Part shown: piece by piece, positions 5,593 through 63,990 of the stretch
How the letters are laid out: the number at the start of each line of letters is the position of its first letter
Position numbering within the stretch: the first letter of the stretch is position 1
Assembly: GCA_024137785.1 (NCBI GenBank)
Contig: JAHRHZ010000041.1
Span: 33,192,642-33,256,641 of the forward strand
Direction: 5' to 3'
DNA from: Ginglymostoma cirratum
Lineage: Eukaryota
Length of the DNA: 64,000 nucleotides
Made by a program: the position numbers and the translations under genes
Notes under the pieces: model-generated
What the model was told of the DNA's origin: nothing
The model's database searches: none
The model's input: only the letters and a program-made list of their open reading frames with translations

Positions 5593-6048
5593 GTCAGGAA
5601 TGTTGCCAGGGTTGAAAGTTTGAGCTATTGGGAGAGGTTGAATAGCCTGGGGCTATTTTCCCTGGAGCTTCAGAGGCCGAGGAGTGGACTTTATAGAGGT
5701 TAATAAAATCATGAGGGGCATGGATCGGGTAAATAGACAAGGTCTCTTCCCCCGGGTGCAGGAGTCCAAAACTAGTGGGCATAGGTTTAAGGTGAGTGGA
5801 GAAAGATTTAGAAAAAAACCTAAGGGGCAATTTTTTCACACAGAGTGGTGCAAGTGTGGAACGATCTGCCAGACGAAGTGGTGGAGGCTGGTACAATAAC
5901 ATTTAAGAGGCATCTGGATGGGTATATGAATAGGAAGGGTTTAAGAGGGATATGCACCAAATGCTGGCAAATGGGACTACATTAATTTAGGATATCTGGT
6001 CAGCATGGACAAGTTGGACCAAAACAACTGTTTCTGTACTGTACTGCT
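5593..6048 (+). mobile_element. CR1/HER1-type LINE 3' fragment
   Basis: Encodes 'LSYWERLNSLGLFSLE...IEVNKIMRGMDRVN...TSGHRFKV...FFHTE', the CR1 ORF2 C-terminus, followed by the 3' UTR. Confidence 0.9.
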
Positions 6049-7486: not shown

Positions 7487-10400
7487 ATTAACAGTATCTT
7501 ACAAACAACATCTCATTGAGCTATCATATTTAAAAATATGTACAATTTCAACAAGAATATTACAACCATTTATGAAAATATAGCATATTTTCTATATAAT
7601 ACAAAAACATGCATTAAAAAAAGACAGCACTATTTGTTTTCGATAGAGGGTGACAGGCAAGAGTACAAAATATAGAAAATTTCAGCCAGTTTGATTTCTC
7701 TTGAAACAATCGGTACTGGGGACAAAGATATAGGGACATAATGCGGCATGTTGTAGAGGCTGGAGGTAATATTTCACCACTAGATGCCCTCAGCATGGAA
7801 CCTCACAGTCAGGGCACAATTCAAGAAACTGCACTGAGCCCACGGCTTTCTGTCAATGGGATCCCAATGAAAATTATGACAGGATTCAGTTTGACAATCA
7901 ACAAATATCCTTAGACCCCAGATTCCCCAGAAGAGCTCACTGGATCAGGAATACAAACCCTGACCGAATCTGTTCCTCTCTGAGCAGCCGGGCCAACTGT
8001 TGCTCTTCTATTGTTACAGTGGACACAGAGTTGTGGGCTGAGAGATTTCCTGACTAAAGCCCTAGCAGGTGAGGCTCAGCACCATGACTAAATAGGAAAA
8101 ACAATACCCTTTCATTTCCTCTGCCATAAACATCTGTATGGTATAGTATCAACAGTTATCTTATTTAAAATATTCCACAGACAGGAATTTAACAAATGAA
8201 GTAACCAGCATGCCAAAATATTTTTGTATGGGGAATGTTATAATGATCATCTGATCCTTGACCCTCCTAGCCTGCAGGATTAAGGTCGCTTTAAAAGCCC
8301 TCTGCAGGGTTAGATATTCTTTTGTGATTTAAGCAAAAATTGAATAATCTTTCTACAAGCCACACAATTGATAATGCACCAATTCCCAAAGTTCTCATGT
8401 GAGCAAATGCATTTGCTGGCATCACTGTGTGGAGTGGGTTTACCAATTTAAATGATATTGATTTGCCATTCTTTTTGCAATTTAGTCACTGGCTAACTGG
8501 GGCACCTCTGCATTGTTCATGGGACTGTCAGATTGCAATGCTACTTGAAAATGCAGCCATTAGTGATTTTGCATGGGAGTGTTGAAATTAGAGAATTTAA
8601 AAAGTAAAAAAAAACCCCACCAAATTCACACATGATGTGCAACATTTAGGGGCCATGCCTGATAAGTGTTTTGAGATATCCAACCCCTCTGTTGTGTTCA
8701 CTCTCATTTTGTAGTGTCTTAGTCCTGTATTATGCTTATGTACACACAAGCATGGTGGTTACAGATTTTTTAAAAAAAGCAGAAATGGTAAAACCTAGGA
8801 AGCACTGCATACACACAGCGATACGGCAGCATCATCAAGAAAAAGCAGAGGGACTGGCTAATTCCTAATGCAGGATCCCACTTAAAGCATTAGCCACCTG
8901 CTTTTTTTCTTCAAAACACAGAACTGGAGACCATATGAGGTAAAAAGGTGTAGAGCTGGATGAACACAGCAGGCCAAGCAGCATCATAGGAGCAAGAGAG
9001 CTTGACATTTCGGGCCTGGACCCTTCTGCTTGGCCTGCTGTGTTCATCCAGCTCTATACCTTGTTATCTCAGATTCTCCAGCATCTGCAGTTCCTACTAT
9101 CACTGGAGACCATATCCTCGTTTCACTCTGTCATTCAGACTCCTGAACATTACTGGATATCCTCGAACCTGCATCTACAGCAATAATTCAACACCATGTT
9201 TTCACTCAAAGGTAGTAGAAAATTAGTTTTAGCAGCCAGGAAATTACAGTAACCGTACTAGGAGCTTGGAACATCCTATTTACACCAAATAGATTTTGCT
9301 TATCCATACATATACTTTGTTTTTTGACCATTTACTGTAAGAATCATGCAATAATCAGTTTTCATGCCATAACCATTAGTAGCAGAGACCAACCATTCAA
9401 CTCCCTCATATCATCTACCCACCATTCTAAGCCTGGGATTCTGCTTCTGTTGGAATAAAAAGCCACCTTTCACATTATTAGTCACCAGTTCTTTTATTTT
9501 TTTTCCAGCTTGTTCGTCACCATGGTGGTGCAACTGGAGGTATTTTCCCAATTAATTTGACAACGAACATTAAAGATGTCCATTATCACTTGTGGGAACA
9601 ATGCTCATAGTGTTGTGTATTATATTAAATAAGATGAAATGATAAATGATATGGGAAATTTTGTACCCAATGGCAGCATCGAAAAATGAGACTGATTAGA
9701 GGGAAAAATGTTGATTGCAGTGGAATGGTAACACAAACACTGAATGGAAACAGGCAGAATCATAAATTTCTTTGCTGCTTCCCCTAGTACCAATAAACAA
9801 ATTGCAGAAATTGATGGCACACAAGCTGGAACTCCAATGGTTCTCCTTTGTTCAGAAACACCCAGGCTCAAGGCTAACACAAACAGAATGGGACAGAAGA
9901 TGCCTAAAAACTGAACACATCATTAATAAACAACTTCACGTCACAATAAGTACAATATACGGTAACTATCATTAAGGAAACCAGAAAATGGCTTGCACAC
10001 TGCAATACATTAATAAGGCTGCAATGTCAACCAAGTACAAATAGTTTCAGTGAAACTTCATTTTCCCTCAACTAATTAAAGTTAATGCTGTATCAGGTGG
10101 GTAAAATGCATCCAAAAAGTGCATTCACCAGGCAATTGAACATAAACCTTTGTCACACTCCCAAAACATTACAATGGTACCAGTTGGTTTGGTTAGTTGG
10201 TGCAGTTGGGTCTGCTGGCCATCTGCTTTCTTTGCATGAACAAAAACTGGTGAATCTCTGTACCTCCACCAACATGGACATCAAATGTTTTGCTTTGCAG
10301 TGTTGCTTGCTTTCCCAGGATGCAAATTCAGCACAAACTCCAGCTGCCAAAAATGCACATTATTGTCTTCAGGAATTCAGAAGACAAGACAACACATTGC

Positions 10401-11230
10401 TTGTTTCAACTATGTGAGTTTCTACTGTTGTTGATTGAAACTACCAAGAAAAGTACTAGCTGGAAATGTTGTCTTCCACAATGGCGTAAGCAGCCAACTT
10501 GCCTGATTTCAGTCAGATCAGCAAGCACCAAAGATAGAAAGGAGTAGGGCATATTGCAATAGATCTTGTCCTAACCTGAGATGGTGTTAAATGATTGAAA
10601 CTCATTGTGGTGAAGCACTGTCTGATCTGTCTAATATTGCAATTGATTAAAAAATAAAAAATTGGTAGTAGATCCACGGTTACAATGAGGACAGCGATAT
10701 GAGCTTTCAACCTGACTGAAATCAAGCTGGTCCATGTAAATGGATTAAGTTTAAAGAAATTCTTTCACAAGCCTCATTACAACACCTTGGTAACTTTGTA
10801 TCTCATGCGTCATATTAAGGTTCCATTGCAACCAGACTGTCTGGTTGCATTACCCGTTGGATGGGTTCTTTCAGGGATCAGCTCCCTCTATCTTCGTCTA
10901 GGTATTGAATCTTAAAATGCCCTCCTTACAAGTGCTTCTCATTCCACCAGATAGGCATGATCTGACATTAATTAACAATTTCTATAGCTTTTTATATTAT
11001 TACAAAACTTTATACAAAACAAGGCTAAAACTCCACATTCTGCAGAGAAGGAATATCTCTTCAGAAAGCATAAATAATTAAAAAGGGTGAAGACATCTTT
11101 AAACCAGATACATTCATATGGAGTAATATTTTACTACTACAAAAAAATAAATAGTATTTTTTGATCCCTCCTCGGTCCTTCCAGTGACTGGCTGCAGTTA
11201 CTGGGTTCAGGCAAACAGGGAATGGGGCTC
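7461..11230 (-). other. CDON: Probable CDON 3' UTR (about 3.8 kb)
   Basis: Follows the stop codon; nearly free of TEs compared with the introns; AU-rich terminal segment 7480-7690; ends at a candidate poly(A) site. The 3' end is inferred. Confidence 0.55.
8937..9101. mobile_element. Fold-back PLE terminal-repeat insertion in the CDON 3' UTR
   Basis: 37-bp inverted arms 8945-8981 / 9026-9062; 14-bp TSD ACTGGAGACCATAT at 8923-8936 and 9102-9115. Confidence 0.8.

Positions 11231-63990
<52,760 letters not shown>

What the first reader, a model, noticed from the sequence alone, without database searches (positions are those of the whole stretch)
8923..63345. Recurrent family of short, TSD-flanked, hammerhead-bearing fold-back elements (mini-Penelopes) across CDON
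Seen: five 130-205 bp insertions with 12-15 bp TSDs and fold-back arms (8937, 17486, 32135, 45495, 53495), plus longer or older relatives (13385, 19071, 30545, 59085, 63080). They fall into at least three terminal-repeat families with different helix II sequences but the same CUGANGA/GAAAC-GUH core. Turnaround points differ between copies, which points to fold-back or template switching during each insertion rather than copying of one MITE master. Inference: a non-autonomous ribozyme-linked retrotransposition system that repeatedly seeds long hairpins, about one per 6 kb here, and is probably mis-annotated as MITEs or SINEs.
Basis: partly seen in the sequence, partly recalled or inferred. Interest (0 to 1): 0.75.

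Follow-up and report, generated by a model that had tools for sequence, protein, structure and literature searches.

The report
Stubby two-armed Penelope retroelement insertions
These short hairpin-shaped repeats are truncated end-pieces of an ordinary, very abundant Penelope-type jumping gene, and the places where they stop likely record where the element's RNA starts and, less surely, where its built-in ribozyme cuts.

Summary
The five insertions and their 12-15 bp target-site duplications are real. They are not a separate non-autonomous family. They are 5'-truncated ends of Neptune-type Penelope-like elements: the same repeat sits 99% identical on 3.5 kb RT + GIY-YIG copies, and one 42-mer has 25,508 exact genomic hits. 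The head-to-head arms with a ~33-nt 'tail' are the published PLE insertion pattern. Only three of the five carry a whole hammerhead core, and one has no long hairpin. In 11 of 14 readable two-arm copies neither arm contains the other, which favours two primed cDNAs over fold-back. Less ordinary: in two families, arms stop in excess 3-7 nt before the hammerhead, at an Inr-like A with a TATA-like box at -29/-31. An extra G precedes that A in 64 of 100 and 13 of 18 copies, as expected if a capped RNA end was copied. Arm ends also fall about 5- to 10-fold across the predicted cleavage bond, which hints at cleavage in vivo. No RNA test confirmed either. The scan found the same elements and the cleavage-site excess before in other genomes.

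The parts
8923..9115 (.). Two-arm PLE end insertion (8937-9101) with 14-bp TSD; short arm on minus covers about +5..+93, tail arm on plus about +50..+127 (C of CUGAUGA = 0); no whole hammerhead core
13385..13831 (-). Single-arm family A copy: end of GIY-YIG, 3' UTR with TATA-like box, Inr-like A at 13483, whole hammerhead 13452-13479; 96.6% identical to near-full-length copy L232; no clear TSD
17473..17629 (-). Tail arm (about +12..+127) with a ~12-nt snap-back, 13-bp TSD; no whole core
19071..19254 (-). Terminal repeat of a different family with a decayed hammerhead at 19101-19134 (helix II GUCACC/GGUGAC); its ORF partner was not traced
30545..31010 (+). Old PLE 3' end: GIY-YIG C-terminal remnant (LGTLQPSG...FNNFR-like), 3' UTR and a decayed core near 30950-30995
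31459..31528 (+).
32120..32351 (-). Family B two-arm insertion (32135-32336), 15-bp TSD, hammerhead 32241-32270, tail arm ends at -4
45483..45711 (.). Family A two-arm insertion (45495-45699), 12-bp TSD, hammerheads at 45529-45556 (-) and 45573-45600 (+), both arms end at -4 with G before; 45569-45700 is 99.2% identical to L232
53481..53677 (.). Family C two-arm insertion (53495-53663), 14-bp TSD, hammerhead 53544-53571 (+)
59085..60026 (.). Older 942-bp two-arm insertion; both arms reach into the GIY-YIG region (plus-arm remnant about 59514-59711), decayed cores; weak TSD
63085..63362 (.). Old two-arm insertion of a B-like family, decayed cores, weak TSD

Best explanation
These are 5'-truncated ends of autonomous Neptune-type Penelope-like retroelements, likely laid down one at a time by the element's own reverse transcriptase-endonuclease and likely dead on arrival. 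Shown: same terminal repeat as 3.5 kb RT + Zn-linker + GIY-YIG copies; TSDs of about 14 bp; two fixed outer ends 33 nt apart, both at TTATCTC; variable inner ends with a sharp pile-up 3-7 nt before the hammerhead. Inferred: the endonuclease nicks both target strands ~14 nt apart; RT starts inside the RNA at one or both TTATCTC sites; one cDNA gives a single arm, two facing cDNAs joined by microhomology or filler give a hairpin. Inferred: because those sites lie only 95-135 nt from the transcription start, RT often runs off the capped 5' end (extra G), which makes the 'mini' size class. Weaker inference: a minority of templates had been cut by the hammerhead.
For: Partner: L232 has two repeats 3,530 bp apart with RT and GIY-YIG motifs; L225 has a 781-aa open frame; Pfam RVT_1 1e-06 (just under cut-off) and GIY-YIG 7e-06 in L110; family B long copies also lead to GIY-YIG (5 of 30 loci with a family-B-type hit). 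Sample = first 100 of 25,508 exact hits: tail-arm outer ends +118..+136 (mode +127), short-arm outer ends +85..+97 in 37 of 38 (mode +93); TSD found in 42 of 100, 11-19 bp, mode 14. 11 of 14 unmasked two-arm copies have mutually exclusive sequence in both arms. Inner ends: 37 of 84 arms reaching +5 stop in -6..+5, 1 stops in -7..-48. Base before the -4 A: G64/A28/T8 in the first 100 of 2,489 hits (hand count) against G 19 of 100 at +28 ends (Fisher p=1e-10). Family B repeats it: 72 of 100 listed copies end at -3..-7, G in 13 of 18 at -4 (hand count; p=3e-5). TATTTA at -31 (A) and TATAAA at -29 in 7 of 11 continuing B copies. Internal priming at two sites that define the tail, and extension of both strands, were shown in vitro for an anole PLE (PMC11167929).
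Against: No RNA evidence for the start site: an unstranded poly(A) run showed no pile of read starts and cannot be told from host transcripts. 44 of 100 sampled copies had withheld letters near a junction and were censored or dropped, mostly two-arm copies. The 14-copy test is small and its anchor favours short tail arms less than long ones in unknown measure. At least one -3 end (L079) is an alignment slip. At -5 ends G is not dominant (about 38 G, 46 T of 100). No intact ORF was seen. 17486 shows that true snap-back also occurs. The RT-binding requirement is borrowed from a Poseidon-clade element.
Confidence: 0.82

Rival explanations
1. A non-autonomous retrozyme-like family: short tandem loci that keep promoter, hammerhead and priming sites supply the RNA and are moved in trans.
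For: Mini-tandems exist: of 37 loci with sequence past the tail, 19 keep only 85-145 nt of it and then rejoin a terminal repeat within 400 nt; L140/L141 repeat a 312-nt unit. Non-LTR retrozymes derive from pLTRs (bioRxiv 10.64898/2026.07.22.740005).
Against: Such loci are rare (45 exact hits of the post-tail 39-mer against 25,508). None of the window copies is one. Over half of arms that reach the hammerhead run on into 3' UTR and ORF. Retrozyme monomers would be expected to begin at the cut site, but the main stop is 32 nt upstream.
Confidence: 0.15
2. Hairpins arise by fold-back or self-priming of one cDNA (first reader; also proposed for rotifer Penelopes on an antisense template).
For: 17486 and several palindromic junctions; PMC3846280 argues for self-priming; 3 of 14 two-arm copies are compatible.
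Against: In 11 of 14 the short arm holds upstream sequence the tail arm lacks while the tail arm holds +94..+127 the short arm lacks; the short arm's outer end is fixed at a second TTATCTC site, and single-arm copies use either site.
Confidence: 0.15
3. The pile-ups at -4 and +28 are stall or microhomology sites (C-tract, hammerhead fold, AAGCTT palindrome, T-rich filler), not RNA ends.
For: 8 of 30 loci ending at +28 are palindromic joins and 2 are slipped continuing copies; T-rich filler inflates +28; ends are spread over about 10 nt.
Against: Near-zero stops upstream of -7; G excess only at -4; same position in a second family whose upstream sequence differs; TATA/Inr spacing; the drop across +27 remains without the palindromes (17 of 92 in 8 of 18 positions, p=2e-7).
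Confidence: 0.25
4. MITEs (DNA transposon derivatives).
For: Short, inverted arms, high copy number.
Against: TSDs 11-19 bp and not constant, arms offset by a 33-nt tail, variable centres, many single-arm copies, direct continuity with RT and GIY-YIG.
Confidence: 0.01

Closest known systems
EN+ Penelope-like elements, Neptune clade: 5'-truncated, tandem and inverted insertions with pLTR and 30-40 bp tail (PMC8557442, PMC3846280)
   Same: RT + CxxCxxC linker + C-terminal GIY-YIG; head-to-head inverted end; tail on one arm only; TSD; partial tandems
   Different: Copy number in tens of thousands per subfamily; TSD mode 14 against 8-10 bp in the rotifer; most copies here are little more than the terminal repeat; fixed stop at the putative RNA start not described in the passages read
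Minimal hammerheads of metazoan pLTRs (PMC4209133)
   Same: CUGANGA, extra base, G-C closed helix II, GAAAC-GUH with no helix III loop, 4-bp helix I; mostly single motifs in truncated PLEs; pairs on opposite strands 100-700 bp apart already reported
   Different: Helix II is 4-6 bp here; helix I starts at the inferred first base of the transcript
PAc (Poseidon of Anolis) internal initiation (PMC11167929)
   Same: Two RT start sites bounding the tail, both strands extended in vitro
   Different: Neptune-type protein; start sites are TTATCTC repeats; that paper found no reads at the cleavage site, while genomic ends here step down across it
Non-LTR retrozymes (bioRxiv 10.64898/2026.07.22.740005)
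   Same: pLTR-derived, type I hammerhead, no ORF
   Different: Those are tandem arrays with two or more whole ribozymes in one direction; the window copies are single or head-to-head and dispersed

Membership tests
EN+ Penelope-like element | RT and C-terminal GIY-YIG in one unit joined to this terminal repeat | tested here: met
   families A; B, GIY-YIG only; window 59085 and 13385 carry GIY-YIG remnants
EN+ Penelope-like element | pLTR in partial tandem or inverted arrangement with a 30-40 bp tail on one end | tested here: met
   modes +93 and +127
EN+ Penelope-like element | Minimal type I hammerhead in the pLTR | tested here: met
   motif only, cleavage not assayed; absent by truncation in 2 of 5
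Neptune clade | CX2-5CxxC Zn-finger-like linker between RT and EN | tested here: met
   CNRRKCYTC in L060, CNCRKCYTC in L110; definition from PMC8557442
Neptune clade | RT phylogeny with Neptune references | not tested
   no reference set at hand
Non-LTR retrozyme | At least two tandem same-direction units each with a whole hammerhead | tested here: not met
   window copies single or head-to-head; a few mini-tandems elsewhere
Non-LTR retrozyme | Circular or monomeric RNA | not testable with these tools
   only an unstranded poly(A) run was informative
MITE | Fixed ends, true terminal inverted repeats, short constant TSD | tested here: not met
   short copies lack the -30 box and post-tail RNA; subfamily phylogeny not done

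The most novel reading that the evidence does not exclude
The tens of thousands of stubs are a genomic record of the Penelope RNA's life: transcription starts on the first base of hammerhead helix I, a dimeric RT primes twice inside the RNA from opposite target nicks, copies through the cap, and some templates were first self-cleaved and so decapped at +28. That would be in vivo evidence for PLE hammerhead activity and would explain the inverted-plus-tail architecture.
Probability: 0.45. Interest if true: 0.65.

Novelty: new member of a known kind. Interest (0 to 1): 0.38.

Why it matters
The elements themselves are an expected product of Penelope-like retrotransposition and matter mainly for repeat annotation in this 4.36 Gb genome. 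The junction statistics are the useful part. How PLEs make inverted ends, where their RNA begins and whether their minimal hammerheads cut in cells are open points in the papers read (PMC4209133, PMC11167929, PMC3846280). A family with tens of thousands of near-identical copies gives exact predictions for 5'-RACE and in vitro tests. Whether the hairpins feed small-RNA silencing was not examined.

Tried and rejected
Rfam: no hammerhead family among 11 matches up to E 5; the miRNA hits are below gathering score and reflect hairpins. Pfam on three short pieces of the window's GIY-YIG remnant: 0 of 3; identity rests on alignment to L232 (67.6% over 68 aa). The first genome search seemed to show a fixed 'TTGA' 5' end in 30 of 30 loci; this was ranking bias, many of those letters belong to the TSD, so an anchor outside the junction was used instead. 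(28,821 and 34,735 hits) cover different subfamily sets and cannot be divided to give a truncation rate. RNA lay on L232: depth on both strands, highest at the repeat, no start or end piles; run X23 laid 17 reads. RNA lay on the window: one splice joint only. Preferential conservation of the core among copies: not significant. Two-sided helix II covariation among families A, B, C: not seen, only G-U/A-U and loop changes; one two-sided change in helix I between A and B, and a wholly different helix II in a further family (n=3). Apparent clusters of ends at -142, -247 and -260 are indels against the reference copy. Part returned nothing through a script error and was redone. Literature searches for cap-derived G in Penelope insertions (0 papers), twin priming with Penelope (2 listings, unread, off topic) and shark hammerhead Penelope found no direct description; the library lacks most subscription journals and Repbase was not available.

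Full report
Observation. Four have long inverted arms; 17486 has only a short snap-back. A whole minimal hammerhead motif is in three of the five; 8937 and 17486 are cut inside it. The five older relatives are PLE-like, and a further fragment lies at 31459-31528. Their TSDs are not above chance. The host gene has Ig and FN3 exons on the minus strand; one exon hits CDON best and BOC close behind, another hits BOC, the only listed relative for that domain. Translations suggest coding ends near 11234, so 8937 is probably downstream of the stop.

What they are. The 59085 insertion carries a decayed GIY-YIG region. In the genome (4.36 Gb) a 42-mer of the youngest repeat has 25,508 exact hits and a family B motif 5,243 (pattern passes only part of the copies). 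Long copies join the same repeat to RT, a CxxCxxC linker and GIY-YIG. L232 has two repeats 3,530 bp apart with frameshifted RT and GIY-YIG motifs, and L225 a 781-aa open frame. Window 45569-45700 is 99.2% and 13385-13831 96.6% identical to L232. The linker marks the Neptune or Nematis type (PMC8557442, passages); no tree was built. No intact ORF was seen.

Anatomy. I fetched all of the first 100 listed hits of the 42-mer (two contigs only) and numbered from the C of CUGAUGA. Tail arms end outward at +118..+136, mode +127; inverted arms at +85..+97 in 37 of 38, mode +93. Both modes sit in TTATCTC. A TSD was found in 42 of 100, 11-19 bp, mode 14; 44 of 100 had withheld letters near a junction. 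Sequence past the tail is the start of the ORF region. This is the inverted-copy-plus-tail pattern described for PLEs (PMC3846280 and PMC8557442, passages), and close opposite-strand hammerhead pairs in truncated PLEs were already reported (PMC4209133, parts 1-2 of 4). For an anole PLE, RT starts at two internal sites that bound the tail and extends both target strands (PMC11167929, parts 1-2 of 4).

Two cDNAs rather than fold-back. In 11 of 14 unmasked two-arm copies the short arm reaches further upstream than the tail arm, while the tail arm alone has +94..+127. Neither can be a copy of the other. Window copy 8937 is of this kind. Single-arm copies end at either site. Three of 14, and 17486, are compatible with fold-back. 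That the two cDNAs come from opposite nicks is inference from the TSDs and the in vitro work.

Why so short. Of 84 arms reaching +5, 37 stop between -6 and +5, and one between -7 and -48 with about 40 still running (at least one is an alignment slip). The -4 base is the A of CCATTTC in family A and of TCAGTTC in family B, both fitting the initiator consensus YYANWYY (recalled), with TATTTA at -31 and TATAAA at -29 in 7 of 11 continuing B copies. In copies that stop at -4 the preceding base is G in 64 of the first 100 of 2,489 hits (counted by hand); in several TSD-flanked cases the G lies outside the TSD. Family B gives 72 of 100 stops at -3..-7 and G in 13 of 18 at -4 (by hand). At +28 ends the same count is 19 of 100 (p=1e-10). 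At -5 the G share is lower, about 38 of 100. An extra G from copying the cap is known for other non-LTR RTs (recalled). So RT likely primes 95-135 nt from the capped start and runs off. Such copies lose the -30 box and the RNA beyond the tail, which PAc needs, so they likely cannot spread themselves. Drosophila Penelope also starts inside its pLTR but was described as TATA-less (PMC2377424, passages).

The cleavage site. Among the first 100 of 4,722 arms ending in +19..+36, 83 end at +27..+36 and 17 at +19..+26; 20 end at +28, the first base after GUC, 8 of them palindromic joins (by hand). Genome-wide probes gave 819 hits for +28, 57 for +26 and 200 for +30. The probes have different chance pass rates, T-rich filler inflates +28, and 10 of 30 inspected +28 loci are palindromes or slipped copies. 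It fits a minority of cleaved templates, but a stall or joining bias is not excluded, and PMC11167929 found no reads at the cut site and no need for cleavage in vitro. I put it near even odds.

Hammerhead conservation. Across families the core is kept while helix II and its loop change; helix I shows one two-sided change between A and B. Among 32 copies of one family the core is not significantly better kept than the rest (p=0.12), as expected for dead copies.

RNA. A poly(A) run covers the whole L232 unit on both strands with no start piles; this cannot separate element transcripts from host introns and UTRs and is not counted as support.

Comparison and verdict. Works like, and passes the tested features of, an EN+ PLE; fails the MITE and tandem-retrozyme tests (definition from bioRxiv 10.64898/2026.07.22.740005, part 1 of 5 and passages; its supplements were not seen and cover one cartilaginous fish). 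PMC6155905 was seen as passages only. Four earlier scan notes agree; they are not independent support. I found no paper on cap-derived G or start-site run-off in PLE insertions, within a library that lacks most subscription journals. New member of a known kind; interest 0.38.

Noticed in passing
L133-L152, L216-L232 (e.g. L140/L141): Mini-tandems: terminal repeat, 85-145 nt of the ORF start, then a jump back to 3' UTR or repeat (19 of 37 loci). They keep promoter, ribozyme and priming sites and look like proto-retrozymes; the clustered stop suggests a further template-jump site.
   Followed up: partly
L030, L014, L005, L093 junction centres: Junction filler made of short repeated snippets (for example AAATC-like repeats) or captured foreign DNA, suggesting repeated slip-and-extend synthesis before joining.
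   Followed up: no
   Followed up: partly
window 45573-45620 and family A generally: The ATG inside CUGAUGA opens only 14 codons here, unlike PAc where it starts the ORF; the first Met of the long frame seen lies about 40 nt past the tail.
   Followed up: no
window 8937-9101: The strongest young hairpin outside introns; it seems to lie about 2 kb past the last CDON-like coding exon, so it may be in the 3' UTR.
   Followed up: partly
L110, L126: Giant head-to-head copies with 1-2 kb arms: the same architecture as the 165-205 bp inserts.
   Followed up: yes
window 5600-6040, 19635-19960, 41010-41740, 58390-58610 and 25365-27870, 56620-56900: Two other dispersed old repeat families (LINE-like and SINE-like remnants), 67-77% alike.
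   Followed up: no
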